This document shows positions 15,554 through 33,772 of a stretch of 50,161 nucleotides of DNA, piece after piece. This DNA comes from an uncultured Candidatus Saccharibacteria bacterium. Lineage in GTDB: Bacteria; Patescibacteriota; Minisyncoccia; Minisyncoccales; RBG-13-42-11. Below the pieces are notes generated by a model. It saw nothing but the letters and a program-made list of their open reading frames with translations. It was not told the origin of the DNA and did no database searches. The stretch covers positions 4,850 through 55,010 of the forward strand of contig CAYXOH010000001.1 in the NCBI GenBank assembly GCA_964467045.1, given 5' to 3'. The translations under genes and the position numbers were made by a program. Positions within the stretch are counted from its first letter, which is position 1; every line of letters begins with the position of its first letter.

Positions 15554-16611
15554 AAGACCAGGGGTCTTTCTCTTTTTGGGGAAGGAGAAACAGAAGTTTC
15601 GTACTCTTTTCTTTTCTTTAAAAAGTCTCTTAAAAATTCAAATATTACTCCAGCTAAAGGAATAGCTAAAATTGCTCCTAAAATTCCCAAAAGCTTTCCG
15701 CCAATTGCTAAGGCCACCAACACTAAGACAGGCGGCAGGCCAACAAATCTTTTGGTCAAAACCGGAGTAATGATATTGCCTTCTATTTGCTGGATTAAGA
15801 TAAAAGCCACTAAAACAAAGAGAGCTTTCAACCAAGAATCCAAACCAACAAAAATAAAAGCAATAAGTCCGGCGATAATTGGCCCCAGAACAGGGATAAA
15901 ATCAAGGATTCCCGCTAAAATCGCCAAAATTAAAGCATACTTCACCTTAAACAGATAAAGAGTAAGAAATACAGCTAACCCAACAAAAATACAAACTAAA
16001 ACCCGTGAGCCAAACCAGCCAGCTACCTTAGCTCGAGAATTTTCCCAAAGAGATAAAACATATTTCTCATGCTTTTTTGGAGTCAAAAGCCCAATTACTC
16101 TTTCTGTTGCTTTTTCTTCTAAGGAAAGAAAGAGAGCAATGGCTAAAACAAAAATAGTTGAGCCAATTCCTCCGAAGATAACCGCTAAGGCATTTAATAT
16201 ATCAGAGGAGGCTTTTTGAAGGGTTCTCCCAAGAGCTTGGATAAAAGTATCCATACTTTCAAAAGCTTCTATTCCCAAGCCTTTTAATGACGGAGCAATT
16301 TTTTCAAAATACTGTGGGAAAAGCTGAGAAAATTGCTTAATTTCTATAACAAACATCGGAGCTATTGCATAAATAAGCAAAGATAAAATTCCAAATATTC
16401 CGATGTAAACAAAAATAACTGCTAATGCTTTGGGGATACGTAAACGACGAAGAAAATTAATAGCCGGCTCAAATAAAACAGAGATAATTAAAGCAAAAAG
16501 AACCCAAATTAAAATATCTCTGACTAAGAAAATAAGATAGAATCCCAGGAAAGCAAGGGCGATTTTGAAAATTGTTCCCCAGGAAACGTCTAAAACTCTG
16601 TCACCATTCAT
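15550..16611 (-). CDS. AI-2E family transporter (PerM/UPF0118)
   Basis: 353 aa, about 8 TM helices, with the DFIPVLGPIIAG motif typical of the family. 4-nt overlap with rsmI. Confidence 0.8.
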   Translation of the reverse strand: MNGDRVLDVSWGTIFKIALAFLGFYLIFLVRDILIWVLFALIISVLFEPAINFLRRLRIPKALAVIFVYIGIFGILSLLIYAIAPMFVIEIKQFSQLFPQYFEKIAPSLKGLGIEAFESMDTFIQALGRTLQKASSDILNALAVIFGGIGSTIFVLAIALFLSLEEKATERVIGLLTPKKHEKYVLSLWENSRAKVAGWFGSRVLVCIFVGLAVFLTLYLFKVKYALILAILAGILDFIPVLGPIIAGLIAFIFVGLDSWLKALFVLVAFILIQQIEGNIITPVLTKRFVGLPPVLVLVALAIGGKLLGILGAILAIPLAGVIFEFLRDFLKKRKEYETSVSPSPKRERPLVL

Positions 16612-16629
16612 ACGATTTTTTATTTATAA

Positions 16630-16683
16630 GTTCGATGAGATAAATCTCATCTCTCGTCTTAATTTATATTTTATCTCTCGAAC
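16630..16683 (+). repeat. Two-hairpin element copy (intergenic), bounded by an imperfect 11-12 bp inverted repeat
   Basis: GTTCGATGAGATAAATCTCATCTCTCGTC....ATCTCTCGAAC. The first hairpin is GATGAGAT/ATCTCATC. Confidence 0.7.
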
Positions 16684-16719
16684 GTCGAGATGAAATTTTA
16701 ATTTCATTGAGCAAACGAA
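16684..16719 (+). repeat. Short sub-type element (GTCGAGATGAAATT-tta-AATTTCATTGAG)
   Basis: Near-identical architecture to 50012-50052 (GTCGAAATGAAACT-ga-AGTTTCATTGAG). Confidence 0.65.
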
Positions 16720-16748
16720 TTATGGAAAAGAAGGTTTACCTTCTTTGA

Positions 16749-18017
16749 CTATAATTTTAATAACTTTTCAAATTTTTCTTTATCTTTATGTGGACCAATT
16801 AAAGCTAAATTTAAATTTTTGTTTCTAAAAATATCTTTTGCTACTTTAAGGATATCATTTGGAGTAATTTTATCAATTTTAGCAAAGATTTCCTTTGGGG
16901 TAAGAATTCTTTTTTCAAATATTTCTTGAGTAGCATAAAAGGATGCTTTAGCATCGGAAGATTCTAATAATAATGCTAATTTTCCTTTAAGATTATCTTT
17001 AGCTTTTTTAAGTTCTGATTCAGAAATCTTATTTTGAGATACCTTTCTATATTCTTTTAAAATAGCTGAAATTGCTTTTTCAATTCTCTGATTATCCACT
17101 CCGGCCCGAGCAGTAAAATAACCCGTATCGGGATTTGCCTCTACTTCGGTTTTAATGTAATAAGCCAATCCTAATTTTTCTCTAATTTCTACGAATAACC
17201 TAGAACTCATCATTCCGCCTAAAATTATTCCCAAAACATCCTGGGTGTATCGTTGAGGATGAAAAACATTATATCCCCTCACTCCAAGATATAAGTGTGA
17301 TTGGTCGGTTTTTCTATATTCTAAAAGACATTGAGGACTTTTTTGTTTTTCAATGACTTTTAGCTTTTGGCTTGGACCTACTTCAGCTACGTTAATAAAG
17401 TATTTTTGTATTAATTTCTTAGATTTTTGCTTATTAAAGTTTCCTGCTATGCATAAAATCGTATTTGAAGGGACATATTGTTTCTTCCTGTAATTTATTA
17501 GACTATTGCGGGTTATTCTCCTGACACTTTCTTTAGTGCCGGCAATATCCCAGCCGGCCGGCTGATTACCATATAATAATTTTGGCCACATTACTCCTTC
17601 AACATAACTCATTGGATGGTCGTAAATCATATTAATTTCCTCAATAATTACTTTTTTTTCTTTTTCAATTTCTTTTTGTGGAAGTAAGCTGTTTAAAAAT
17701 ATATCCGAGACCCAATCAAATACTAATTCAAATTGGGAAGCTTCTACTTTGGCAAAGTATCCTGTAAAATCCTGACCGGTAAAAGCATTATAAATCCCCC
17801 CAATCTTGTCCAAGGGTTCTACTACCCCAACAGGAGTAGACCTTTTTTTGGTTCCCTTGAACATCATGTGTTCCAAAAAATGAGAAATCCCATTGATTTC
17901 CTTTGTCTCATACTTTGAACCGGTTCCAACCAAAATTAAAACAGTTACCGCCTGACTGCTTTTTTGAGGAACAGTAATAATCCTTAATCCATTTTTAAGA
18001 GTTGTTTTTGTATACAT
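16749..18017 (-). CDS. M16-family zinc peptidase (insulinase-like)
   Basis: 422 aa with the inverted zinc motif HFLEH plus a downstream E. Confidence 0.85.
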   Translation of the reverse strand: MYTKTTLKNGLRIITVPQKSSQAVTVLILVGTGSKYETKEINGISHFLEHMMFKGTKKRSTPVGVVEPLDKIGGIYNAFTGQDFTGYFAKVEASQFELVFDWVSDIFLNSLLPQKEIEKEKKVIIEEINMIYDHPMSYVEGVMWPKLLYGNQPAGWDIAGTKESVRRITRNSLINYRKKQYVPSNTILCIAGNFNKQKSKKLIQKYFINVAEVGPSQKLKVIEKQKSPQCLLEYRKTDQSHLYLGVRGYNVFHPQRYTQDVLGIILGGMMSSRLFVEIREKLGLAYYIKTEVEANPDTGYFTARAGVDNQRIEKAISAILKEYRKVSQNKISESELKKAKDNLKGKLALLLESSDAKASFYATQEIFEKRILTPKEIFAKIDKITPNDILKVAKDIFRNKNLNLALIGPHKDKEKFEKLLKL

Positions 18018-19318
18018 TCAACTAAATCTTTAATTTTTACTCTTTCTTGCGACATGGTGTCCCTGTCACGAACCGTCAGATCATCCTTTTCTAAAGTTTC
18101 AAAATCAATAGTCACAGCAAATAAGGTGCCGATTTCGTCTTGCCTGCGATAACGTCTTCCGATTGAACCCACTTCATCATACTGGGTCATAAAATGAGGC
18201 TTTAAAATTTCAAAAATCTCTTTAGCTTTCTTGACTAATTCTGGCTTATTTTTGACTAAAGGCATAACTGCCACTTTAATCGGCGCTATTTTCTTATCGA
18301 TTTTAAAAACTACTTCTATTTCCTTGGTAGCTTCGGTTGTCTTTGTTCTGCCACCCTTAATTTCCGTATAGGCATTGCACAAAACAGCCAAAAGAGCTCT
18401 TTCTAATCCCATGGTTGGTTCAATAACATAAGGATAATATTTCTTTTTTGTCTCTTCATCAAAATATTTCAAATCTTTCCCGGAAAACTGACTGTGTCTC
18501 TTTAAATCGTAATCTGTACGATTGGCTACGCCAGCTAACTCTGCCCAGCCAAAGGGAAACTTGTATTCAATATCAACTGTTCTTTTGGAATAATGGGCTA
18601 AGGATTTTTTAGGATGTTCGTAAAGACGCAGGTTCTCTTTCTTCAACCCCAAATCCAAAAAGAATTTTCGCCATTCCTCCAGCCAGAAATCAAACCATTG
18701 TTCATCTTTTCCCGGTTCAACAAAATATTCAATTTCGGCAAGGTCAAATTCTTTGGAACGAAAAGTAAAGTTCCCAGTAGTAATTTCATTTCTAAAACTC
18801 CGGCCAACCTGAGCAATGCCAAAAGGAACTTTTAAACGTTGAGATTCCTGAACTAGTTTAAAGTTGGTAAACATTGATTGGGCAGTTTCTGGTCTTAAAT
18901 AAGTTATATGGGCTTCGTCTTCCACCGGTCCCAGAAAAGTTTTAAACAATAAATTGAATTGCCGAGAAGGAGTGAAATCTTTACCCCCACATTGGGGACA
19001 CTCTTTTTTTGTTAATTGGTCTTCTCTAAAACGGGAATGGCATTTCTTGCACTCAATTAAAGGATCGGTAAAACTTTCAAGGTGTCCTGAAGCTTCCCAA
19101 GTTTTAGGATGCATTAAAACCGTACCATCTATCAAAACTACATCTTCTCGATTTTGAACAAATTTTTTAAGCCAGAGATTCCTGATATTATTTTTTAAAA
19201 GAGCGCCCAGGGGCCCGTAATCCCAAAGTGCCTCCACGCCTCCGTAAATCTCCGAGGATGGAAAAATAAAACCACGTCTTTTGCAAAGTGATACAATTTT
19301 TTCCATTAAAGCTGCCAT
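17984..19318 (-). CDS. glyQS: Glycine--tRNA ligase (dimeric class II type)
   Basis: 444 aa. The N-terminus ..CKRRGFIFPSSEIYGG....WDYGPLG is characteristic. Confidence 0.95.
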   Translation of the reverse strand: MAALMEKIVSLCKRRGFIFPSSEIYGGVEALWDYGPLGALLKNNIRNLWLKKFVQNREDVVLIDGTVLMHPKTWEASGHLESFTDPLIECKKCHSRFREDQLTKKECPQCGGKDFTPSRQFNLLFKTFLGPVEDEAHITYLRPETAQSMFTNFKLVQESQRLKVPFGIAQVGRSFRNEITTGNFTFRSKEFDLAEIEYFVEPGKDEQWFDFWLEEWRKFFLDLGLKKENLRLYEHPKKSLAHYSKRTVDIEYKFPFGWAELAGVANRTDYDLKRHSQFSGKDLKYFDEETKKKYYPYVIEPTMGLERALLAVLCNAYTEIKGGRTKTTEATKEIEVVFKIDKKIAPIKVAVMPLVKNKPELVKKAKEIFEILKPHFMTQYDEVGSIGRRYRRQDEIGTLFAVTIDFETLEKDDLTVRDRDTMSQERVKIKDLVECIQKQLLKMD

Positions 19319-19329
19319 AAATTTGAAAT

Positions 19330-21006
19330 TTATTGTACTACTCCCTGAGAATCGCTCACGGTTTCATCATCCGGTAAGGTAGTATCAATGGCCGTACTGC
19401 TGGCGGTTAATATGGTTTCCGTCCATTGATCCTGACCGCTGATTGTAGCAGCGCTAATTAAGTCCGGGGTTTTTCCTCTTTGTGAGCCGTTTGGGGTAAA
19501 TTCAATCTGGAAAGAAATATTAGGAGCATCATTCAGAACTCCCTGCCCAACTTCTAAATCACCTATCTCCCAAACTAATTCTTTGGATTGAGAATCAAAG
19601 GCAAATTTTTCAGATTCTTCCTCGGGAAAAATTTTACCGGTTAACTTTACTTGAACTGGTAAAACAGCTTTTACTTTGGTGTTTTTTGCTTCCGAATAGT
19701 AATTCTTAACTTGCCAAATTATTGTATAGGTAGTGGCCTCGCCAACAGTTGGTGGTAGGGGTCCTGAATTTCCAAAAACTTCTTCCTGAAAATACCCCTT
19801 TTGGACGATTTCTATTTTTGATTTAACTTTATTGACAAATTCTTCTCTGGCTTGGGGGAGAATAATTCTATTTTTAATCACTGGGTTTTTATTTTCAGGA
19901 GAAGAAATGTGCCATTCATCTTTTAGTTCAACCCAAAACTCTACCTTACCTTCTTCTAATGAATCTAAAAACTGTAGTTCGGGAACTCGTCTCCAATCAA
20001 AAACGATGGAATTATCTCCTGGTTCAAAATTACCAAAATCTGATTTTATACTCTGTAAATCAAAAGCTTCTCCTTCTAATTTGTTGACTAAAGACATATA
20101 AGTTAAAGATTCCTCTCCGATATTCTTAAAGAAAATCTCGTAGTGTAGCAAATCTCCAGGAGAAGCAATATATTCTGGATTATTATTGATTTGCTGAGTA
20201 ATATGTAAATCTGGCTGAACAATTTCTATTCCTTTAGCCGCTTCCTTTAAGAGGACGATTTCTCCATTCTGCCAGCTGCCAATTTTTGCCTGAAAAACTT
20301 TCTCTTCTCCAACTTCTCCTCTAATTTTCCCGGTAATTTCAACTCTTCCGCCGTCAGCTTTATTTAAAAGTCCAATTTCCCAGTCAGTTTTTTCCAATGA
20401 TTCAGGAATAGCACTAATAAATTCAAACTCTGAAGGATAACTAATTGTTATTCTTAAATCAGAAAGCGGATAATCTACATTGGAAAAATAATTCAATCTA
20501 AAGCTCAATTCCTTTCCAGATTCAATTTTTGATGGAATATCAAATTCAAAGGTCAGGGGCACCTTATTAATTTTAGTAGTAAATGTAGTAGATGATTCAT
20601 AGCCAGCTTTTAAATTTTTGGGCCGGTAGCTCAGTAAGGCTTTAGCCGTCTTAATTTCTCCTTCTTTGCCTAAAAGTCGGGCTTTAAAGCTAAAGGTTTT
20701 TTCTTCGCCGGGATAAATCGCCCCGCCAAAATCATCTGAGCCCTTAGTAACCCTCAGAGATTCTTCTCCGACTGGTATAGAATAGTCGGGATACTCAAAA
20801 ATTAATTCAGGTTCCTCCAAGCGAGTGGTTCCGTTATTTTTATACTTAACAATATATTCAATTTCCTGGAGAAGATCGGCTTCTTCCGGACCCAAGATTT
20901 CCACCTTTAAAATATCTTTAGAATAAATATTCTTTTGAAAAAAATAAAAACCTAAAACGCCTGCTAAAATAGCTAAAAATATAATAAAAAGGGTAGCTTT
21001 TTTCAT
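19330..21006 (-). CDS. Hypothetical membrane-anchored extracytoplasmic protein
   Basis: 558 aa. A single N-terminal hydrophobic helix (ATLFIIFLAILAGVLGFYFF) is followed by long beta-rich repetitive sequence. No catalytic motif recognised. Confidence 0.7.
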   Translation of the reverse strand: MKKATLFIIFLAILAGVLGFYFFQKNIYSKDILKVEILGPEEADLLQEIEYIVKYKNNGTTRLEEPELIFEYPDYSIPVGEESLRVTKGSDDFGGAIYPGEEKTFSFKARLLGKEGEIKTAKALLSYRPKNLKAGYESSTTFTTKINKVPLTFEFDIPSKIESGKELSFRLNYFSNVDYPLSDLRITISYPSEFEFISAIPESLEKTDWEIGLLNKADGGRVEITGKIRGEVGEEKVFQAKIGSWQNGEIVLLKEAAKGIEIVQPDLHITQQINNNPEYIASPGDLLHYEIFFKNIGEESLTYMSLVNKLEGEAFDLQSIKSDFGNFEPGDNSIVFDWRRVPELQFLDSLEEGKVEFWVELKDEWHISSPENKNPVIKNRIILPQAREEFVNKVKSKIEIVQKGYFQEEVFGNSGPLPPTVGEATTYTIIWQVKNYYSEAKNTKVKAVLPVQVKLTGKIFPEEESEKFAFDSQSKELVWEIGDLEVGQGVLNDAPNISFQIEFTPNGSQRGKTPDLISAATISGQDQWTETILTASSTAIDTTLPDDETVSDSQGVVQ

Positions 21007-21026
21007 AATATATTTAATTTACCAAA

Positions 21027-21755
21027 TTATTTAATTTGTTCCAAGACTGCCGATAAATAATAGTTGGATATTTTGTTTAATTCGTTGAATGTTTGATTAT
21101 CAATCCTTAATCTTCTTAGAATGGCTAAATCTTTCCTTAAAATAATCCTTAATATTTTTACGGCATCGGAGCTAATTGGCTGGAGAAATTTTGTCTTATC
21201 CTTACATTCCTCTCCTATCAGCCCTCCTTCTTTTAAGCTAAAGGAAATATTATTAGGGATTATTTTTTTCTGACAAATAGAACAGTAATAAAGCTCTACT
21301 TGATAGCCTAAAATAGAAAGAAGATTCCAGAGAAAATAATAGTATATCATAGAACATTGAACAGGGAACGGGAAATGGCTATTGAGTGTTGTAAATGTTT
21401 CCGTTAATAGATGCCAGATTTTGGGGTCGGGCTCCTCTCCTTTAAACAAATTGTCCACCGCATCAGAAATTCGATGGGCAATTGCTATTTTTTTTAGATC
21501 TCCTCTTAAATTTTTAAAGTTGTTGATTAAGATAGCATCAGTTAAGGTTTTGTGGGTTTTTCCCTGAATAAATTCGATTTCTGAAAGATAGAAAATTTCT
21601 AAACCCGCTCTTAGTTTTGATTCTATTTTTCTTTCAGCTTTTGCTAATAAATCCAACCTTCCAAAATCTTTAGTATAAATTGTAAAAATTCTGTCTGCTT
21701 CTCCACGATTAATTTTCTTCAAGATAAAACCTGGCGTTCGGTAATGCAGAAACAT
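21027..21755 (-). CDS. recO: DNA repair protein RecO
   Basis: 242 aa. OB-fold N-terminus (GFILKKINRGEADRIFTIYTKDFGRL) and a C-x2-C ... zinc-like segment (CSICQKK). Confidence 0.85.
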   Translation of the reverse strand: MFLHYRTPGFILKKINRGEADRIFTIYTKDFGRLDLLAKAERKIESKLRAGLEIFYLSEIEFIQGKTHKTLTDAILINNFKNLRGDLKKIAIAHRISDAVDNLFKGEEPDPKIWHLLTETFTTLNSHFPFPVQCSMIYYYFLWNLLSILGYQVELYYCSICQKKIIPNNISFSLKEGGLIGEECKDKTKFLQPISSDAVKILRIILRKDLAILRRLRIDNQTFNELNKISNYYLSAVLEQIK

Positions 21756-21765
21756 ATTTATTTGA

Positions 21766-22068
21766 TTAGTATGGCTTAACTCCAGTAATATCTTGTAAAA
21801 ATCTGATTTTTCTATCAGTACCTACCCTTTCTTGGCTTGTCTTAGCTCGATGTCTTTCCGTCCTTAACTCTCTTAGTCGTCTTTTAACCTCTATTTCTGA
21901 AATATGGCTGCTAAATCTCGAATGGGGAAACATTTCTTTTTCCATTTTCATTCTTTGTTGCAGAGAATACATTCTGCCGCCAGCTCCCGGAATATATGGA
22001 GAAGATTTTTTTAATATTTCTCTCAATTCAGGCCTGGTAATTCCTTTTTTCTTGTTGAAAATAGACAT
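21766..22068 (-). CDS. Hypothetical small basic protein
   Basis: 100-aa ORF packed between recO and ileS. No recognisable family. Confidence 0.55.
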   Translation of the reverse strand: MSIFNKKKGITRPELREILKKSSPYIPGAGGRMYSLQQRMKMEKEMFPHSRFSSHISEIEVKRRLRELRTERHRAKTSQERVGTDRKIRFLQDITGVKPY

Positions 22069-22071
22069 AAT

Positions 22072-25000
22072 TTAAATCTTTTTAATTGCTAACCATAATT
22101 TTTGTTGCTCGACCTTTAATTCTTTTTTTATACCAAAAACTTGTTTTGGTTTTTCTCCTAAAACAAAATTTTTGACTTTTGCTTCTTTGATAATAAATTC
22201 TTTATTTTTTTGGAGGATTTTGTTTAAATTACCTTCTCCAAGAAATCTGACTAAAATTTTATCTTTTGGTTTCAAGTTGGCTTTCTTTCTCATCTCTTGG
22301 ATATTGCGGATTATCTCCCTGACGATGCCTTCTTCTTTAAGTAGCGGAGTTATTTTAGTATCTAATTCTAATTTTTCTTTAAGTTTAGAGTCAAAAACCA
22401 CTTCCTTAATGTTAACTTCTTCAGCAATTAAATTAAGTAAATCATTATCAATTTTTGACTTTTCGCTTTTAATTTTTAATTTTTGAAGCGGTTGTCTAAC
22501 TTTTATTCCGGCCCTTGCCCGCTCGGCCAGTGCTCTGGCAACAATTTCTCTTACCTCTCTCATCTTTTTTTCTAATTTATCATCTTTTATTTTTTTATTT
22601 TCTTCCGGCCAATCTTCTAAATGGCAACTTCTTTTCTTCCCCAGCCCCCGATAGATCACTTCACTTAGGAACGGAATAAAAGGAGCAGTTAGTTTGCTTA
22701 GAGTTAAAAGTGCAAAACTTAAAGTTTCCGAGACCTCTTTTAATTCTTTTTTGCTGGCAGGTTTTTGAAATCTCTTTCTGGAACGCCGGATGTACCATAA
22801 AGAAAGATCTTCAACTACAAAATTCTCAATTGCCCTAGCCGCACCAGTCACATTATACCTATTCAATCTTTGAGTGGCTTCCCGGATAAGATTATCTAGC
22901 CTGGCAATAACCCATTTATCAAGAATATGTTTGGATTTTGGAATTTGGGATTTGGAGTTTGGAATTTCTTTTTTTTGAGCATAGGTTCTTAAAAAAATAT
23001 ATGAGTTCCAGAAAGTCAAGATGAATTTTTTCAGAGCTTGGTCTACTTCTCTTTCAGAAAATAACTTAGCATCTCCCGGCTGGTTTATGGTGTAAAAGTA
23101 CCAGCGAGTGGCATCTGCTCCATATTCTTCAATAATAGAATTCGGTTCAACTACATTGCCTTTGGATTTTGACATCTTATCTCCTTTTTCATCTAAAACA
23201 TGACCCAAAGAGATAGCATTTTTATAAGTCGGCCCTTTCTTTAATAAAGTAGAGATAGCCAAAAGTGTATAAAACCACCCCCGGGTTTGATCAATGGCTT
23301 CAGAAATATAATCTGCCGGGAACTGTTCTTCCTGTAATTTTTGGTTTCCGAAAGGATAATGATATTGAGCAAAAGGCATAGCCCCTGAATCAAACCAGCA
23401 ATCAATCACTTCCGGAGTTCTCTCCATTAAGTTCTGGCATTTGGGACAATAAAATTTAACTTTATCAATGTAAGGACGGTGGAAATCTAATTCCATATTT
23501 TCGTTATACGGCAAATTACTGAACTTTAATTTTCTCAACTCTCCCGTTTTAATATGGGACCTCATTCTTTTTTCTACCATTTGTTTTTGGGAAAGTCCTT
23601 CGTTTGCCCCGGCCAAGGCAGTAATGGGGAATTCATGACTGATAATCAAAACTGTTTTATTCTGATATTTTTTATCGGTATCTTTTAAAAAAGAGTGCAT
23701 TCTTTTTTGTGCATCTGAATAATTTTCTCCTTTTGGTGCTCTAACTTTGAATCTTTTCAGATAATAATCTAATTTTTTAAGTTTTCTTTCCGGATCCCAA
23801 AATCTCCCCGCTATTTTAACTGATTTTCCGTTCAGACCGCCCATATCAAGTTCTCTTAATCTTTTGTCAAATTTCGGTTTAACTCCTGTCTCTCTTTCTA
23901 TAATTTCAGCTGTCTGTCTTGTTCTCAAAAGATCCGAAGAAAAAATTAAATCAATTTTAGCTTTTTTTATTTTTTCAGCCACTTTTGCAATTTGTCTTCT
24001 TCCTCTTTTTGTCAGGGAACATTTGCTTTTTTCTGGCCAGCAAGAAACTAAATTTTTGACATTTCTATCGGACTCCCCGTGTCTCAAAATAAGATATTTA
24101 TTACTGCTGAATTTTTTCAAGAGCAGGTCCTTTTTTGAACCAATAATTTCCACTTGGCCACATTTTTTACATTGCCAAACAGGCAGAGGTGTCCCCCAGT
24201 ATCTTTCCCTAGAAAAAGCCCAATCTTTAATTTCTCTTAACCATTCACCAAATCTCCCCTTTTTTAAATGAGCTGGAATCCAATTAATTTTTTGACTATT
24301 TGCAAGCAAACCTTTTCTGACCTTCTTTACATTTATAAACCAGCTTTGTTTAGCATAATAAAGCAAGGGTGAATTACATCGCCAACAAAAAGGATAATCG
24401 TGACTATAGGGCTCTTTTTTGAAAAGCAGGTTTCTCTTTTTTAAATCTTCAACAATTAAAGGATCAGCCTTTTTAACAAATATTCCTTTCCATGGTTTAA
24501 CTTCCGGAACGAAACAGCCAACTTCATCTACAGTAATAAAAATTGGTAAATTCTTTTCTTTTCCTAATTCCATGTCTTCTTCGCCAAAAGCCGGAGCTAT
24601 ATGAACCAATCCTGTTCCCTCTTCTAAAGAAACAAAGTTGCCAGCAACTATAAACCAAGCTTTTTTATCGGGTTTCATAAATTTATACAAAGGTTCGTAT
24701 TCTAACCCAATTAATTCTTTTCCTTTAATTTCTTCAACAATTTTCCCCTCCACCCCGGAAGCTTTCATTCTTTCCTTGGCTAAAATTAAATAGCAAGCCT
24801 CTTCCCTTGAGGAAGAAGGCGAAGATAAAGATGAGGACGAAGTCTTCATCGCCGATTCATTGTCAGCTTTCACTTTTACATAAGTTAAATTTGGGTTTAC
24901 AGCAACAGCAACATTACCGGGCAATGTCCAGGGAGTGGTCGTCCAAACCAATAAGCTGGTATCTGATTTTAATTTAAATTTTACATATATTGCCGGCTCT

Positions 25001-28650: not shown

Positions 28651-28851
28651 ATGAGTAAGTTAAAAACCAGAAAATCATTTACCAAACGTTTCAAAATTAC
28701 TAAAACTGGAAAAATATTGAGAAGGGCTACCGGTCTTAACCATTATCGGGCAAAAAAATCCGGTCAAAAAATAAGACAAAGTAGAAAATGGGTTAAAGTT
28801 TCCAGAAGTGAAGCTAAAAAAATAAAGAAATTACTGCCACATCGTCGATGA
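28651..28851 (+). CDS. rpmI: 50S ribosomal protein L35
   Basis: 66 aa. MSKLKTRKSFTKRFKITKTGKILRR.. is typical L35. The stop TGA lies inside the first repeat unit. Confidence 0.93.
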   Translation: MSKLKTRKSFTKRFKITKTGKILRRATGLNHYRAKKSGQKIRQSRKWVKVSRSEAKKIKKLLPHRR

Positions 28852-29009
28852 ATTTAAAGATTCATCTTCATCTGCGCCCACTACGTGGGCTTGATAACAG
28901 TCGATGAATTTAAAGATTCATCTTCATCTGCGCCCACTACGTGGGCTTGATAACAGTCGATGAATTTAAAGATTCATCTTCATCTGCGCCCACTACGTGG
29001 GCTTGATAC
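28845..29009 (+). repeat. Three direct tandem units (56, 56, 53 nt) of the two-hairpin element filling the rpmI-rplT spacer
   Basis: The unit is TCGATGAATTTAAAGATTCATCTTCATCTGCGCCCACTACGTGGGCTTGATAACAG, starting at 28845, 28901 and 28957. The hairpins are GATGAAT/ATTCATC and GCCCAC-tac-GTGGGC. Confidence 0.92.
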
Positions 29010-29357
29010 ATGACTAGAGTAAAAAGAGGAAAAATTGCTCACAAAAGAAGAAAGCGTTTATTAAAATACGCCAAAGGTTTCCGCTGGGGCAGAAAAACAA
29101 AATACAGATTAGCTAAAGATGCTCTCTATCATGCTTGGGAATACGCTTACCGAGACAGAAGAACAAAGAAAAGAGAGTTTAGAAAACTCTGGCAAATCCA
29201 GATTAATGCTGCTTGCAGACAAGCTGGAATTTCTTATAGCAGATTTATTTACGGCCTCAAAAAAAACAAAATTGGCTTAGATAGAAAAATTTTATCTGAA
29301 CTAGCTCAAAACCACTCCGAAATTTTTGAAAAACTCGTAGAAAAAGTAAGAGGCTAA
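29010..29357 (+). CDS. rplT: 50S ribosomal protein L20
   Basis: 115 aa. MTRVKRGKIAHKRRKRLLKYAKGFRWG.. is canonical L20. Confidence 0.95.
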   Translation: MTRVKRGKIAHKRRKRLLKYAKGFRWGRKTKYRLAKDALYHAWEYAYRDRRTKKREFRKLWQIQINAACRQAGISYSRFIYGLKKNKIGLDRKILSELAQNHSEIFEKLVEKVRG

Positions 29358-29690: not shown

Positions 29691-31175
29691 CTAAATAGGT
29701 CGGATGTCGGCTTCTTCCTGAAGCTGTTTTATATTCTTAAATCCCTGTTTTTGCAGAGATTGTTTTACTCCAATAATTAATTTAGGGAGGAAATTATAGC
29801 CAGACCCTCGATAAGGGACCTTGACTACTACACCTTCAGCAATTCTTGTTTTTACTTTATCTACTGCATATCTGATAGCCGATCTCTGTTCCATAGCCTC
29901 CAAAGACCCCATGCCTCGATATTTTTTAACCATTCTATTCTCTTCGTAATCAAACTCTTTCTCACCGGGCGATTCATCTAAACCAGCAAGAATACTTCCC
30001 ATCATTACAGTTTGAGCGCCTAAGGATAAAGCTTTACTAATATCTCCTGGTTTTTGAACGTCTTGTCCTGCCTCATCCATTACCCTTATTCCTCCATCAG
30101 CAATTAAGGGCATGAAGCCATATTTTGATTCCAACCTTTTAGCTTCCTGAGCACAATCCCAAACCGCTGAAGCCTGGGCTCTGCCCGTCCCGAGTTCCTG
30201 CTGGGTGATACAGGCTGCTCCCGGACCAATGCCTACTCTTATTGCATCGCAAAATTCAAAAGCCTCCTCCATAATTTTTCTAACCATCTCTGCTGAATCA
30301 ACGTTTCCTAAAATAACCTGCAAATCAGGAAAATTTTCTTTAACAAACTTAGCAATTCCTAATTGTTCCCTAAAAACTACGCTGGCATCAACAACTATGC
30401 CGTCAGCCCCGGCATCAGACGCTTTGCCAATTCTCTCTTTAACCAGACTCAACCTGGATTCTGCAGCAATAAATACTTTTAATTGTTTGTTTCCGTCTTT
30501 GGTTGCTAAAGGAAACTGTTCATTTTTCCTAATGTCTGAGTCAGTCACTAAAGCGACTATGTTATCTGCTTCATCTATTATAATTAAAGTATCCAAATTG
30601 TTCTCTCTTATAATCTTATTAGCCGCATTAAGATTGTTTCTATCAACTATTTCTGATTTTTTACCCACGATTAATTTTTCCCTGGGAGTCATCACCTCGC
30701 TTAATTTAGTTTCCATGTCTGCCCTATATCTAACATCCCTATGGGTGACGATTCCTTTTAATTTTGAATTTAGAGTTCCATCTTCAGTAATGGGAGTACT
30801 GAAAAATCCATATTTTTCTGCAATATTATAAACATCTTGAATCGTATTTTGAGAAGATAAAACAACAGGATCATAAACAAACCCTGCCTCAAATTCTTTT
30901 ACTTTTTCTACTTCTTCGATTTGTTCGTCTATAGTTTGGAAATTATAATGGATAACCCCGATTCCTCCCATCAAAGCCATTAAAATTGCCATTTGAGATT
31001 CGGTAACCGTATCCATTGGGGAGGAAACGAAAGGGGTTTTCAAGATTATTTTTTTAGTAAACTGAGTTGTCAAATTTACTGTATCCCGCTCAAAATCAGG
31101 CAACCTATTGGGAACGAGAGTAATATCTTTGTACCAAAATTCTTTATTTTGTAAGTCAGGATGTAATTTTGCCAT
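29691..31175 (-). CDS. guaB: Inosine-5'-monophosphate dehydrogenase (with CBS pair)
   Basis: 494 aa. ..LTTQFTKKIILKTPFVSSPMDTVTES.., GIGPGAACITQ (catalytic Cys loop) and ADGGIR motifs. Confidence 0.9.
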   Translation of the reverse strand: MAKLHPDLQNKEFWYKDITLVPNRLPDFERDTVNLTTQFTKKIILKTPFVSSPMDTVTESQMAILMALMGGIGVIHYNFQTIDEQIEEVEKVKEFEAGFVYDPVVLSSQNTIQDVYNIAEKYGFFSTPITEDGTLNSKLKGIVTHRDVRYRADMETKLSEVMTPREKLIVGKKSEIVDRNNLNAANKIIRENNLDTLIIIDEADNIVALVTDSDIRKNEQFPLATKDGNKQLKVFIAAESRLSLVKERIGKASDAGADGIVVDASVVFREQLGIAKFVKENFPDLQVILGNVDSAEMVRKIMEEAFEFCDAIRVGIGPGAACITQQELGTGRAQASAVWDCAQEAKRLESKYGFMPLIADGGIRVMDEAGQDVQKPGDISKALSLGAQTVMMGSILAGLDESPGEKEFDYEENRMVKKYRGMGSLEAMEQRSAIRYAVDKVKTRIAEGVVVKVPYRGSGYNFLPKLIIGVKQSLQKQGFKNIKQLQEEADIRPI

Positions 31176-31512
31176 GGGTGTTAATTATTATTCCTTCGTT
31201 TTTTAATAAAGTGTTTTTCCTTTTAGTTCCCCGATTATAGCCACCAATTTTTCCAGTTGATGAAGACTTCGTTTTCATCTCCACGCTTCGCTTCGCTCGC
31301 GTATCTGATTTTATAATTCTGTGACAGGGAATTTTTGGATTTACATTTTTATTTAACACATTCCCTACTGCTCGCCAAGCCTTAGGCCTTCCGACAAGCT
31401 TAGCTACTTGTTTATAAGTCATTACTCTTCCCCTTGGAATTTTCTTAACAACCTCATAAACCTTATCTTCAAAATTTGTTTTATGTTCTATGTTCCATGT
31501 TCTATGTTTCAT
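31156..31512 (-). CDS. ogt: Methylated-DNA--protein-cysteine methyltransferase (Ogt/MGMT C-terminal domain type) with an element-derived insertion
   Basis: 118 aa. IPRGRVMTYKQVA, PCHRII (active site) and GKIGGY. A 16-aa insertion, TRAKRSVEMKTKSSST, lies between them. Confidence 0.85.
   Translation of the reverse strand: MKHRTWNIEHKTNFEDKVYEVVKKIPRGRVMTYKQVAKLVGRPKAWRAVGNVLNKNVNPKIPCHRIIKSDTRAKRSVEMKTKSSSTGKIGGYNRGTKRKNTLLKNEGIIINTHGKITS
31256..31302 (+). repeat. Two-hairpin element copy inside ogt, antisense to the gene, frame preserved
   Basis: The plus strand reads GTTGATGAAGACTTCGTTTTCATCTCCACGCTTCGCTTCGCTCGCGT. The first 24 nt are almost identical to the ileS copy. Confidence 0.8.
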
Positions 31513-31520
31513 GTTCTATG
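31482..31520. repeat. Heptanucleotide tandem array (plus YATGTTY, minus RAACATR, ~5.5 units) spanning the NUDIX stop and the ogt start
   Basis: TATGTTC TATGTTC CATGTTC TATGTTT CATGTTC TATGAG. The ogt ATG (31512) and the NUDIX TAG (31502-31504) both lie inside it. Confidence 0.85.
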
Positions 31521-31942
31521 AGATAGTTATTTGCTTTTTTGAGAATTTCTTTAGCATTTTTATATGTAAGTTGTTTTAGAGCATCAGCGTAAGGCAACCA
31601 TTCAAATCCTATGTGCTCCCAGGAAATTTTAACTTCTTTTTCTTTTGTTTCCGCCAGGAGAAATGTAACAAATTTCAAAATATTTTTTCCTTCAAATTTA
31701 AAAAAATATTTAATGGTTTCTTTAAAATCGCTGACAAAGGCAATATTTTTTAAACCCGTTTCTTCTCTTACCTCTCTTTTAACCGTATCTTCCATTTTTT
31801 CTCCTTTCTCAATATGCCCTTTAGGTAAATCCCAATAATCTTTTTGGGCCCGGGAACCAGAAGGATAATGCAAAAGCAAAAATAAGGGCCTTTCACCCTC
31901 TTTTCTAAAAATTATTGCTCCAGCCGATTTTTCTATTGGCAT
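31502..31942 (-). CDS. NUDIX hydrolase
   Basis: 146 aa with the Nudix box GHIEKGEKMEDTVKREVREETGL. Confidence 0.85.
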   Translation of the reverse strand: MPIEKSAGAIIFRKEGERPLFLLLHYPSGSRAQKDYWDLPKGHIEKGEKMEDTVKREVREETGLKNIAFVSDFKETIKYFFKFEGKNILKFVTFLLAETKEKEVKISWEHIGFEWLPYADALKQLTYKNAKEILKKANNYLIEHET

Positions 31943-33658: not shown

Positions 33659-33660
33659 AT

Positions 33661-33772
33661 GCCGAGCCTCGTATAACAAGGCGAATGTAAAGATGAGAAC
33701 AAAATTCTCATCGCCTGCCGAGCCCCGCCCTGCGAGGCGAAGGCGAAGATGAGAAGAAAATTCTCATCGCCT
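33661..33772 (-). repeat. Two direct tandem 56-nt units of the two-hairpin element filling the spacer upstream of polX
   Basis: The units are 33661-33716 and 33717-33772. The minus strand of unit 2 reads AGGCGATGAGAATTTTCTTCTCATCTTCGCCTTCGCCTCGCAGGGCGGGGCTCGGC. Confidence 0.88.

What the first reader, a model, noticed from the sequence alone, without database searches (positions are those of the whole stretch)
31256..31302. Element inserted antisense six residues after the catalytic PCHR cysteine of Ogt, with the frame preserved
Ogt reads ..KIPCHRIIKSD-[TRAKRSVEMKTKSSST]-GKIGGYNRG... In MGMT/Ogt proteins as I know them, PCHR(V/I)..S.G is followed almost directly by ..GGY. The 48 extra nucleotides are the reverse complement of a family copy (plus strand GTTGATGAAGACTTCGTTTTCATCTCCACGCTTCGCTTCGCTCGCGT). 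The element is therefore open in at least one antisense frame as well, and it sits next to the active site of a suicide repair protein.
Basis: partly seen in the sequence, partly recalled or inferred. Interest (0 to 1): 0.6.

Follow-up and report, generated by a model that had tools for sequence, protein, structure and literature searches.

The report
Hairpin repeat translated inside Ogt
A 48-base copy of a small hairpin-forming repeat sits in frame in the DNA-repair gene ogt of a tiny uncultured (CPR) bacterium, adding a floppy 16-residue loop beside the active site. The same insert turns up in the ogt genes of several distantly related lineages, apparently passed around by recombination.

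Summary
The ORF at window 31156-31512 (-) is a C-domain-only MGMT/Ogt with all catalytic residues. It carries exactly 16 extra residues (TRAKRSVEMKTKSSST; 48 nt, 31255-31302) between S69-D70 and G87. 112 of 119 homologues and all matched solved MGMT structures have nothing there.

The 48 nt are a reverse-oriented copy of a two-hairpin repeat family (GTCGATGA-hairpin-TCATC-tail). A leave-one-out nhmmer model still finds it (E 0.002). About 26 copies score E<0.01 in this 429-kb genome. The family's hairpin motif is found almost only in this bacterial family. AlphaFold2 places the insert as a low-confidence loop at a beta-hairpin tip on an intact MGMT core.

The insert is not private to this genome. 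Seven ogt protein clusters in at least four diverged, syntenic lineages carry it at the same site, orientation and frame. It is 94% identical in nucleotides, against 71% for the rest of the gene (58% at third positions). Its changes are star-like and look neutral. Carriers are not one clade (AU p 0.00017), and each has a close insert-free relative. Recombination junctions lie at the insert (Fisher p 4.6e-15).

Best reading: an RPE-like repeat insertion of single origin, tolerated as a loop and shuffled among ogt alleles by homologous recombination. Moderately interesting.

The parts
31156..31512 (-). ogt: a 118-aa MGMT-family protein with the C-terminal (DNA-binding/active-site) domain only. 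It is the only MGMT homologue found in the 429-kb assembly.
   Evidence: ORF list. Pfam PF01035 E=3.9e-27. Single match in G000. Foldseek rmsd 1.1-1.5 A to MGMT C-domains. Y33, R47, N54/N56, P62-C63-H64-R65, Y92 and E106 are all present.
31255..31302 (+). 48-nt repeat copy, with the element's own sense on the + strand and so antisense to ogt. It is translated as T71-T86 (TRAKRSVEMKTKSSST). The boundary may shift by one base to 31256-31303, which makes the element read GTTGATGA...CTCGCGTA.
   Evidence: Empty sites in orthologues..TCAGAT|GGC... nhmmer leave-one-out E=0.002 on the + strand. 50% G+C by my own count of the 48 letters, against 36% for the genome.
31259..31279 (+). Hairpin 1: GATGAAGAC-TTC-GTTTTCATC. 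This copy has one G-T wobble; orthologues have a perfect 9-bp stem (GTCTTCATC).
   Evidence: Fold. Family copies share GATGA/TCATC and have covarying inner stems, with 21 distinct hairpins.
31280..31303 (+). Short-form tail TCCACGCTTCGCTTCGCTCGCGT(A). It lacks the full second GC hairpin of the long (54-56 nt) family copies.
   Evidence: Seed alignment. The same tail subtype occurs at two non-ogt loci of another genome, G061, with different hairpin-1 sequences.
31318..31329 (-). Codons for P62-C63-H64-R65 (catalytic cysteine codon TGT at 31324-31326). This stretch is part of the conserved segment that appears to serve as the left recombination anchor.
   Evidence: Sequence. All lineages are near-identical in the 60 nt left of the insert, while similarity switches partner across it.
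29691..31175 (-). guaB (IMPDH). It overlaps the ogt 3' end by 20 nt. The order polX-nudix-ogt-guaB is conserved in nearly all related loci.
28844..29011 (+). Other copies of the family, for context: three tandem 56-nt units that fill the rpmI-rplT spacer.
33660..33771 (-). Other copies of the family, for context: two tandem 56-nt units directly upstream of the polX start codon.
24793..24857 (-). Other copy of the family, for context: a 63-nt in-frame, sense-oriented insert in ileS. Its hairpin 1 differs from the ogt orthologues' hairpin by one base.

Best explanation
The 48 nt are one copy of a short, GC-rich, two-hairpin interspersed repeat. The family motif is GTCGATGA, a hairpin, TCATC, and a tail ending CTCG(G)YA, in units of 44-63 nt. 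Its hairpin motif is found almost only in this family of CPR/Patescibacteria bacteria.

The copy entered ogt once, in reverse orientation. Its length is a multiple of three and this reading frame of the element has no stop codon, so it is simply translated. The result is a 16-residue loop rich in Lys, Arg and Ser, probably disordered, at the tip of the beta-hairpin that follows the PCHR active site. The MGMT core and the catalytic network stay intact, so the protein most likely still works as a suicide alkyltransferase (inferred, not shown).

The insert now behaves as a separate module of the gene. It is found at the identical site in at least four diverged lineages, and each of these has close insert-free relatives. 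It was most likely passed between (or removed from) ogt alleles by homologous recombination. The left crossover falls in the highly conserved PCHR-coding stretch beside the insert, and the right crossover falls further downstream.

Shown here: family membership, the exact insertion, the intact gene, a non-clade distribution, excess nucleotide conservation, and recombination junctions at the insert. Inferred: single origin, direction of transfer, retained enzyme activity, and neutrality of the loop.
For: Family and orientation:
- nhmmer leave-one-out E=0.002 on the + strand.
- About 26 copies score E<0.01 in G000, several of them in frame in long ORFs in both orientations.
- Inner stems of hairpin 1 covary.
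- The motif occurs in 14 of 19 genomes of the same family (0-118 copies) and almost never in other families of the order; the reversed-pattern control gave 0.

Insertion:
- 112 of 119 homologues have no residue at this point and 7 have exactly 16.
- Empty sites are clean, with no target-site duplication.

Structure:
- AF2 mean pLDDT 81.9, core above 90, insert 58-70, between strands 66-69 and 85-88.
- Foldseek rmsd 1.1-1.5 A to MGMT C-domains.
- Catalytic residues are kept.

Spread:
- Insert nucleotide identity among carriers is 0.94 (third positions 0.95), against 0.71 (0.58) for the rest of the gene.
- All differences are singletons: 9 nonsynonymous and 2 synonymous, which fits neutral expectation (p=0.74).
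- The tree needs 7 changes for 7 carriers, and the AU test rejects one clade at p=0.00017.
- Flanking genes agree. The window's NUDIX is 86% identical to insert-free L022 and 62-70% identical to other carriers. IMPDH of insert-free L024 is 98-99% identical to carriers L018/L029.
- Mosaics: L029 left of the insert is 33:1 L037-like and right of it 3:32 L024-like (Fisher p 4.6e-15). L013 gives p 1.2e-5 and the window p 1e-3.
- The full hairpin-plus-tail variant was found only in ogt: 4 of 4 metagenome hits, and none in genome contigs or viral contigs.
Against: - In the most divergent carrier (L017/P0007) the flanks differ right up to both insert boundaries, so no co-transferred flank is visible there.
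- Recombination between lineages about 25-40% divergent in nucleotides is normally inefficient. Only about 30-60 nt of near-identity is available on the left side.
- Both nearest 'parents' of the recombinant L029 lack the insert, so the actual donor has not been seen.
- In one benchmark, the orthologous polX-upstream copy in the window and L026, hairpin 1 is also nearly invariant (26 of 27 bases by my own count of the alignment). Structural constraint could therefore explain part of the conservation.
- The window's own copy has a weakened hairpin and a degenerate GTTGATGA end.
Confidence: 0.6

Rival explanations
1. Ancient insertion plus selection on the DNA or RNA sequence. The element entered ogt in the common ancestor of all these lineages. 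It has been held nearly constant by nucleotide-level selection, for example on the hairpin as a structural or regulatory signal in the polX-nudix-ogt-guaB transcript. It was then lost precisely many times.
For: The consensus insert folds well on the mRNA strand (-19 kcal/mol, z=-3.5, 0 of 200 shuffles). Synonymous and nonsynonymous sites are equally conserved. P0007's flanks are diverged right up to the insert. Hairpin 1 of the polX-upstream copy is also conserved between the window and L026.
Against: This needs many independent, base-perfect deletions with no flanking direct repeat: at least 7 changes on the tree, and more if all are losses. No compensatory stem changes have accumulated, although host synonymous sites are saturated. 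The tail of the benchmark polX-upstream copy diverged to about 66% (my own count of the alignment), whereas the ogt tail stays about 96% identical. P0006 is as diverged in the host gene as P0007 yet carries the exact consensus insert. No promoter, terminator or Rfam signal was found. Insert-free relatives keep the same operon.
Confidence: 0.15
2. Independent site-specific insertions (homing-like). An unknown enzyme repeatedly inserts this element subtype at the same ogt sequence in different lineages.
For: The family is clearly mobile: relatives carry it at different sites in ileS, and G017 has 118 copies with many identical hairpins. Presence or absence is clean in nearly identical backgrounds, as in L024 versus L029. 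The tail subtype exists at other loci in G061.
Against: All carriers share the same 48 nt, the same length, orientation and frame, while family copies otherwise differ in hairpin sequence and in length (44-63 nt). No donor copy of this variant was found outside ogt, either in G000 or in the public collections. No target consensus or duplication is visible. No Y1 (RAYT) transposase is present in G000, and Y1 presence does not track copy number across relatives.
Confidence: 0.08
3. Adaptive loop. The Lys/Arg-rich peptide gives Ogt a useful new property, such as extra DNA contact, changed substrate range or altered turnover. Positive selection has then carried it across lineages.
For: It has spread into at least four diverged lineages. 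The peptide has net charge about +4. It lies at the position equivalent to human AGT Ser151-Gly153, next to the substrate pocket and DNA backbone; this last point is recalled from the AGT literature and was not tested here.
Against: The peptide shows no purifying selection: 9 nonsynonymous and 2 synonymous changes, including V->G, S->P, E->K and K->E. It is predicted to be disordered. 112 of 119 close homologues do without it, including the nearest relative of every carrier. The charge follows from the element's sequence in this frame.
Confidence: 0.12
4. The insert is not translated. It is skipped by ribosomal bypassing or removed from the mRNA, as for T4 gene 60 or mitochondrial byp elements.
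For: It is a short GC-rich hairpin insert in an AT-rich coding sequence, of similar size (48 nt) to known bypass gaps.
Against: It is open and in frame in all carriers, its length is a multiple of 3, there is no stop after a take-off codon, and no matched take-off and landing codons restore the frame.
Confidence: 0.02

Closest known systems
Rickettsia palindromic elements (RPEs; Ogata et al. 2000, as summarised in PMC10969869 and PMC1779305)
   Same: Both are interspersed palindromic repeats in a small genome. Both are found between genes and in frame inside unrelated, often essential, protein genes. Both are translated as extra peptide segments compatible with the host fold. No transposase is known for either. 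Both show lineage-specific proliferation.
   Different: This element is 44-63 nt, against 100-150 bp for RPEs. It has a different sequence and a two-hairpin layout, and it occurs in a different phylum (CPR/Patescibacteria). This ogt copy is much more conserved than its host gene and is distributed patchily by recombination, which I have not seen reported for RPEs. Sequence relatedness to RPEs was not tested.
REP/BIME elements mobilised by RAYT (Y1) transposases; GTAG/CGTC-tagged REPs (PMC3733652)
   Same: Both are short GC-rich hairpin repeats with a conserved motif at the 5' foot of the stem. Neither makes a target-site duplication.
   Different: REPs are extragenic. No PF01797 gene is present in G000, and PF01797 presence does not track copy number across relatives. 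No family copies flank the four RAYT-like genes I inspected. There is no consistent GTAG or CGTC tag.
Mycobacterial interspersed repetitive units (MIRUs; from my own knowledge)
   Same: The family's intergenic copies form tandem arrays whose small ORFs overlap the stop and start codons of the neighbouring genes. The rpmI-rplT array shows this as a chain of ATGA overlaps.
   Different: MIRUs are intergenic. The ogt copy is intragenic and in reverse orientation. The sequences are unrelated.
Mitochondrial GC clusters / byp elements of yeasts and T4 gene 60 bypass (from my own knowledge)
   Same: Both are short GC-rich hairpin inserts inside coding sequence of an AT-rich genome.
   Different: Byp elements break the frame and are skipped by the ribosome. 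This insert keeps the frame and has no bypass signals.
MGMT/Ogt/Ada-C alkyltransferases (PF01035; PDB 4zye, 1sfe, 1eh6) and ATL proteins (3gva)
   Same: The host protein has the helix-turn-helix, Arg finger, Asn hinge, PCHR cysteine, Tyr and Glu of active alkyltransferases, and it has the same fold.
   Different: It has no N-terminal domain (about 95 aa without the insert). It carries a 16-residue loop where the matched solved structures show only a short gap (2 residues in 4zyg/4zye).

Membership tests
Two-hairpin repeat family of this CPR lineage (no published description found) | Profile match to the family when the copy itself is left out of the model | tested here: met
   nhmmer leave-one-out gave E=0.002, 16.7 bits, on the + strand. 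Orthologous copies score E of about 6e-7, with a model that included the window's own copy.
Two-hairpin repeat family of this CPR lineage (no published description found) | 5' motif G(T/G)CGATGA followed by a hairpin closed by GATGA/TCATC with a variable, covarying inner stem | tested here: met
   Orthologues have GTCGATGA and a perfect 9-bp stem. The window's copy has GTTGATGA and one G-T pair.
Two-hairpin repeat family of this CPR lineage (no published description found) | Second GC-rich hairpin and a terminal CTCGG(C/T)A | tested here: inconclusive
   This is a short-form tail (CTTCGCTTCGCTCGCGTA) with only a weak second stem. The same tail subtype recurs at two other loci in G061, and a similar one in the C17 tandem copies, so it appears to be a subfamily.
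MGMT/Ogt (PF01035) | Domain match above Pfam's gathering score | tested here: met
   94.3 bits against a cut-off of 27.
MGMT/Ogt (PF01035) | PCHR motif with the acceptor cysteine, plus Tyr, Arg finger, Asn hinge, Tyr158-equivalent and Glu | tested here: met
   Y33, R47, N54/N56, P62-C63-H64-R65, Y92 and E106 are present. The mapping to human AGT numbering is from memory.
MGMT/Ogt (PF01035) | Stoichiometric alkyl transfer from O6-alkylguanine to the cysteine | not testable with these tools
   This needs a biochemical assay.
Rickettsia palindromic elements | Palindromic interspersed repeat found in frame in protein genes | tested here: met
Rickettsia palindromic elements | 100-150 bp units of the ten RPE families, in Rickettsiales | tested here: not met
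   Units here are 44-63 nt and the host is CPR. It works like an RPE but is not a member.
REP/RAYT system | Cognate Y1 (RAYT) transposase gene in the genome, usually flanked by the repeats | tested here: not met
   No PF01797 in G000. G017 has 118 copies and no PF01797. Genomes with PF01797 in other families have no copies. No copies lie next to four RAYT-like loci. G000 is only 91% complete.
Translational bypass elements | Insert that interrupts the frame, with matched take-off and landing codons | tested here: not met
   The insert is open, is 48 nt (16 codons), and has no matched codon pair that restores the frame.

The most novel reading that the evidence does not exclude
The insert is a locus-bound invasive module. 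It would be a 48-nt hairpin repeat that, after landing once in ogt, spreads horizontally into empty ogt alleles across genus-level boundaries without any endonuclease of its own. Possible drivers are biased repair of the heteroduplex loop or hairpin-stimulated recombination next to the only conserved stretch of the gene. Alternatively it spreads because the basic loop improves a suicide repair enzyme. Either way, a repeat-derived peptide next to an active site would be moving between species as a unit smaller than a gene.
Probability: 0.2. Interest if true: 0.75.

Novelty: new variant of a known kind. Interest (0 to 1): 0.55.

Why it matters
In-frame palindromic repeats are the textbook oddity of Rickettsia. 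This finding suggests the same phenomenon has arisen independently, with a much smaller element, in the ultra-small genomes of CPR bacteria. I found no description of it for this group in the literature I searched.

The ogt copy adds two points. First, such an insert is tolerated seven residues from the catalytic cysteine of a single-turnover repair protein, in the only MGMT gene of the genome. Second, the insert evolves and travels independently of its host gene. It is nearly identical in lineages whose ogt genes are only 60-80% identical at the nucleotide level. It lies at recombination junctions, and ogt itself is a mosaic of highly diverged 5' and 3' allele types within otherwise 93-99% identical neighbourhoods.

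That makes this locus a natural marker for measuring recombination across lineage boundaries in uncultured CPR populations. It is also a simple test case, with and without 16 residues, for how repeat-derived peptides are absorbed by proteins.

Tried and rejected
- RAYT/IS200-type mobilisation. PF01797 is absent from G000 and its presence is uncorrelated with copy number in 31 relatives. No repeats flank four RAYT-like genes.
- A master copy of the exact variant. None was found in G000 with up to 3 mismatches on a 27-nt core. None was found in genome contigs or viral contigs. The four metagenome hits are all ogt.
- The tail as a unique derived character proving a single origin. I dropped this argument because the same tail subtype occurs at two non-ogt loci in G061 with other hairpins.
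- A regulatory reading. No promoter-like or terminator-like site and no credible Rfam match lie in 31100-31600.
- Bypass or splicing. The sequence has no supporting features.
- Target-site consensus or duplication. None is evident from the ogt, ileS, polX and rpmI-rplT filled and empty sites.
- Strand of hairpin selection. Both stem changes leave G-U on the element-sense strand, but two events are not significant.
- Geometry of the loop relative to DNA. No model coordinates were available in the Python box, so no distances could be measured.

Full report
**1. The observation**

The minus-strand ORF at 31156-31512 encodes a 118-aa protein:

MKHRTWNIEHKTNFEDKVYEVVKKIPRGRVMTYKQVAKLVGRPKAWRAVGNVLNKNVNPKIPCHRIIKSDTRAKRSVEMKTKSSSTGKIGGYNRGTKRKNTLLKNEGIIINTHGKITS

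It matches Pfam PF01035, the MGMT DNA-binding/active-site domain, at 94.3 bits. The match ends at residue 74, which is profile position 63 of 81. Against solved MGMT structures the match splits in two. Query residues 14-68 align to 4zyg residues 71-124, and query 88-110 align to 127-149. Two chain residues therefore stand where the query has nineteen.

In an alignment of the query with 118 homologues, 112 sequences have no residue between D70 and G87 and seven have exactly sixteen.

The insert is 48 nt, at 31255-31302 in codon register. It can equally be placed at 31256-31303 because one boundary base is ambiguous. Seven residues, not six, separate Cys63 from the insert.

**2. It is a copy of the repeat family, in reverse**

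The window and its 428,853-bp genome (33 contigs, 36% G+C) hold a family of short repeats. The layout is G(T/G)CGATGA, a hairpin closed by GATGA/TCATC, then TCT(T/C)CAC..TTCG, a second GC-rich hairpin of variable sequence, and CTCGG(C/T)A.

- An nhmmer model from 14 seeds finds about 26 copies at E<0.01.
- With the ogt copy left out, the model still hits it at E=0.002 on the + strand, which is antisense to ogt.
- The inner stem of hairpin 1 differs from copy to copy but stays paired, with 21 distinct hairpins.
- The hairpin-1 motif occurs in 14 of 19 genomes of the same taxonomic family (0 to 118 copies). It is essentially absent from 12 genomes of other families in the order. A reversed-pattern control found none.

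The ogt copy is a short-form member whose tail is TCCACGCTTCGCTTCGCTCGCGT(A). The same tail subtype, joined to other hairpin-1 sequences, occurs at two non-ogt loci in another genome, MNWE01, labelled 'Parcubacteria group bacterium CG1_02_39_15'.

By my own reading of the consensus, four of the element's six reading frames are open. The frame used here gives TRAKRSVEMKTKSSST.

Other copies in this genome sit in frame in long ORFs, in both orientations. Examples are ileS, a 695-aa ORF, a 547-aa ORF and a 402-aa ORF. Still others fill gene junctions.

**3. The host protein looks intact**

All the residues I recall as the alkyltransferase catalytic network are present: Y33, R47, N54/N56, P62-C63-H64-R65, Y92 and E106 (the mapping to human AGT is from memory).

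AlphaFold2 with the 119-sequence alignment gives a mean pLDDT of 81.9. The core scores above 90. Residues 71-80 average 58 and residues 81-90 average 70. The insert is drawn as a protrusion between strands 66-69 and 85-88. Foldseek superposes the model on MGMT C-domains at rmsd 1.1-1.5 A over 94-99 columns (4zyd, 4zye, 1sfe).

This is the only MGMT homologue found in the assembly. The protein lacks the N-terminal domain of classical Ogt, and so do its roughly 95-aa relatives.

**4. The insert is shared, over-conserved and patchy**

Seven protein clusters (P0001-P0007, 60-77% identical to one another) carry the insert at the same site, orientation and frame. Their contigs share the gene order polX-nudix-ogt-guaB, so they are orthologues.

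*Conservation.* Among carriers the insert is 93.6% identical in nucleotides (94.6% at third positions). The rest of the gene is 71.0% identical (58.2% at third positions). Among identical amino acids the codon is the same in 96% of cases inside the insert, against 64% outside. High conservation starts and stops at the insert boundaries.

*Pattern of change.* Every difference from the consensus is a singleton. There are nine nonsynonymous and two synonymous changes, and neutrality predicts 74% nonsynonymous (p=0.74). The peptide therefore shows no sign of selection as a peptide. The low divergence must reflect either youth or constraint on the nucleotides.

*Distribution.* On a tree of 50 Ogt proteins with the insert columns removed, the seven carriers need seven changes. 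Well-supported branches alone force at least four. No bootstrap tree unites the carriers, and the AU test rejects a single clade (delta lnL 122.6, p=0.00017).

Each carrier has a close insert-free partner: the query with P0008, P0003 with P0020, P0005 with P0021/P0028, P0004 with P0023, P0006 with P0046, and P0002 with P0010/P0011.

The flanking genes agree with this picture. The window's NUDIX protein is 86% identical to that of insert-free L022 and 62-70% identical to those of other carriers. IMPDH of insert-free L024 is 98-99% identical to that of carriers L018/L029.

**5. Recombination junctions lie at the insert**

L029 (carrier) and L024 (empty) are 98-100% identical from about 50 nt upstream of the insert through guaB. 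In the ogt 5' half and the nudix 3' end they are only 65-88% identical.

I counted sites that discriminate between the two nearest relatives, in the 250 nt on each side of the insert.

| Carrier | Relatives compared | Left 250 nt | Right 250 nt | Fisher p |
|---|---|---|---|---|
| L029 | L037-like : L024-like | 33 : 1 | 3 : 32 | 4.6e-15 |
| L013 | L039-like : L024-like | 36 : 4 | 14 : 20 | 1.2e-5 |
| Window | L022-like : L013-like | 37 : 8 | 23 : 25 | 1e-3 |

Within one tight group of genomes (IMPDH 93-99% identical), the ogt 5' halves are only about 60-70% identical in nucleotides. The gene is thus a mosaic of deeply diverged allele halves joined at the conserved PCHR-coding stretch. The insert lies immediately to the right of that stretch.

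**6. What this excludes and what remains**

*Independent transposition into the same site* is unlikely.
- All carriers share the same 48 nt, while family copies elsewhere differ in hairpin sequence and in length.
- The hairpin-plus-tail variant was found nowhere but in ogt: G000, genome contigs, metagenome contigs with four hits all in ogt, and viral contigs.

*An ancient insert held constant by selection on the nucleotides*, with many precise losses, is not excluded.
- For it: the consensus hairpin is strong (-19 kcal/mol, z=-3.5). P0007's flanks are diverged right up to the insert. Hairpin 1 of the orthologous polX-upstream copy is also conserved between the window and L026.
- Against it: this model needs many base-perfect deletions without flanking repeats. 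The tail of that benchmark copy diverged to about 66% (my own count of the alignment), whereas the ogt tail stays about 96% identical. P0006 is as diverged as P0007 in the host gene yet carries the exact consensus insert.

I therefore favour a single origin followed by exchange among ogt alleles through homologous recombination. The direction of each event (gain or loss) is left open.

*The mobilising activity of the family* remains unknown. PF01797 (RAYT-type) genes occur in 15 of 31 relatives but not in G000. Their presence does not track copy number, and the four RAYT loci I inspected have no family copies beside them.

**7. Comparison with known systems**

The behaviour matches Rickettsia palindromic elements, which are repeats inserted in frame in unrelated genes and compatible with the host fold (PMC10969869, PMC1779305). 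This element is not an RPE by size, sequence layout or host.

The intergenic copies behave like MIRUs, with a chain of ATGA stop/start overlaps.

I found no paper describing such elements in CPR/Patescibacteria. Earlier notes of this scan describe the family in this genome. I re-derived the family here and did not rely on those notes.

**8. Verdict**

The general phenomenon is a new variant of a known kind. The points specific to this copy are its position next to the catalytic cysteine, its reverse frame, its excess conservation, and its recombination-driven patchy spread. These make it moderately interesting (0.55).

The read-mapping tool (look-up of sequencing runs) was closed, so within-population polymorphism and expression could not be examined.

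Noticed in passing
window 28844-29013: The three tandem 56-nt family units between rpmI and rplT form an unbroken chain of overlapping stop/start codons (ATGA). The L35 stop at 28849-28851 overlaps an ATG at 28848. Three mini-ORFs follow (MNLKIHLHLRPLRGLDNSR twice, then ..GLDT), each ending on the next ATG. The last stop overlaps the L20 start at 29010. This is a MIRU-like layout that would preserve translational coupling. Relatives L013 and L024 have the two genes 1 nt apart.
   Followed up: partly
L013, L024, L029, L037, L039 (ogt 5' half, about 150 nt before the PCHR codons): In genomes whose polX and guaB are 93-99% identical, the ogt 5' half is only about 60-70% identical in nucleotides. 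The 5' and 3' halves occur in different combinations. ogt therefore appears to be a hotspot of allele replacement or diversifying exchange, independent of the insert.
   Followed up: partly
L019 and L031 (ogt, just upstream of the PCHR codons): A second small GC-rich perfect palindrome, TCCGCCAGCTGGCGGA, replaces a few codons (..NKSASWRTK.. instead of ..NKNQNPK..) in the P0006 allele only. This is another kind of tiny palindromic insert in the same gene.
   Followed up: no
proteins P0039, P0060, P0037/P0042/P0083 (Ogt homologues): Other Ogt homologues carry different short inserts at other positions. P0039 has VVKEDKSSSSPFAAA near the N-terminus, which looks like the same family read in a sense frame. 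P0060 has PAPEPSARYGAGY before PCHR. P0037, P0042 and P0083 have a C-terminal ..RVDPEHCRRIKHG.. type. The small Ogt seems to be hit repeatedly.
   Followed up: no
L026 ileS (15873-19535) and window ileS (about 21000-25000): IleRS of three syntenic relatives carries in-frame inserts at four different sites: one in the window, three in L026 and none in L013. One L026 insert reads VAETSSHLPPRLAKRDSV, typical of the family's sense frame. The family has therefore been mobile since these lineages split.
   Followed up: partly
G017 (relative, same family): This genome holds 118 matches to the hairpin-1 motif, against 0-23 in the other relatives. Many have identical hairpins (GAGGACTGCGTCCTC), which suggests a recent burst. 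It has no PF01797 gene.
   Followed up: no
P0004 (L021): One carrier allele has PCYR instead of PCHR and GNIDGY instead of GxIGGY, two changes at nearly invariant positions. It may be an inactivated allele.
   Followed up: no
window 31482-31520: The ogt start and nudix stop lie in a run of heptanucleotide repeats (CATGTTC/TATGTTC-like). The window's Ogt N-terminus (MKHRTWNIEHKT) differs in length from its relatives' there.
   Followed up: no
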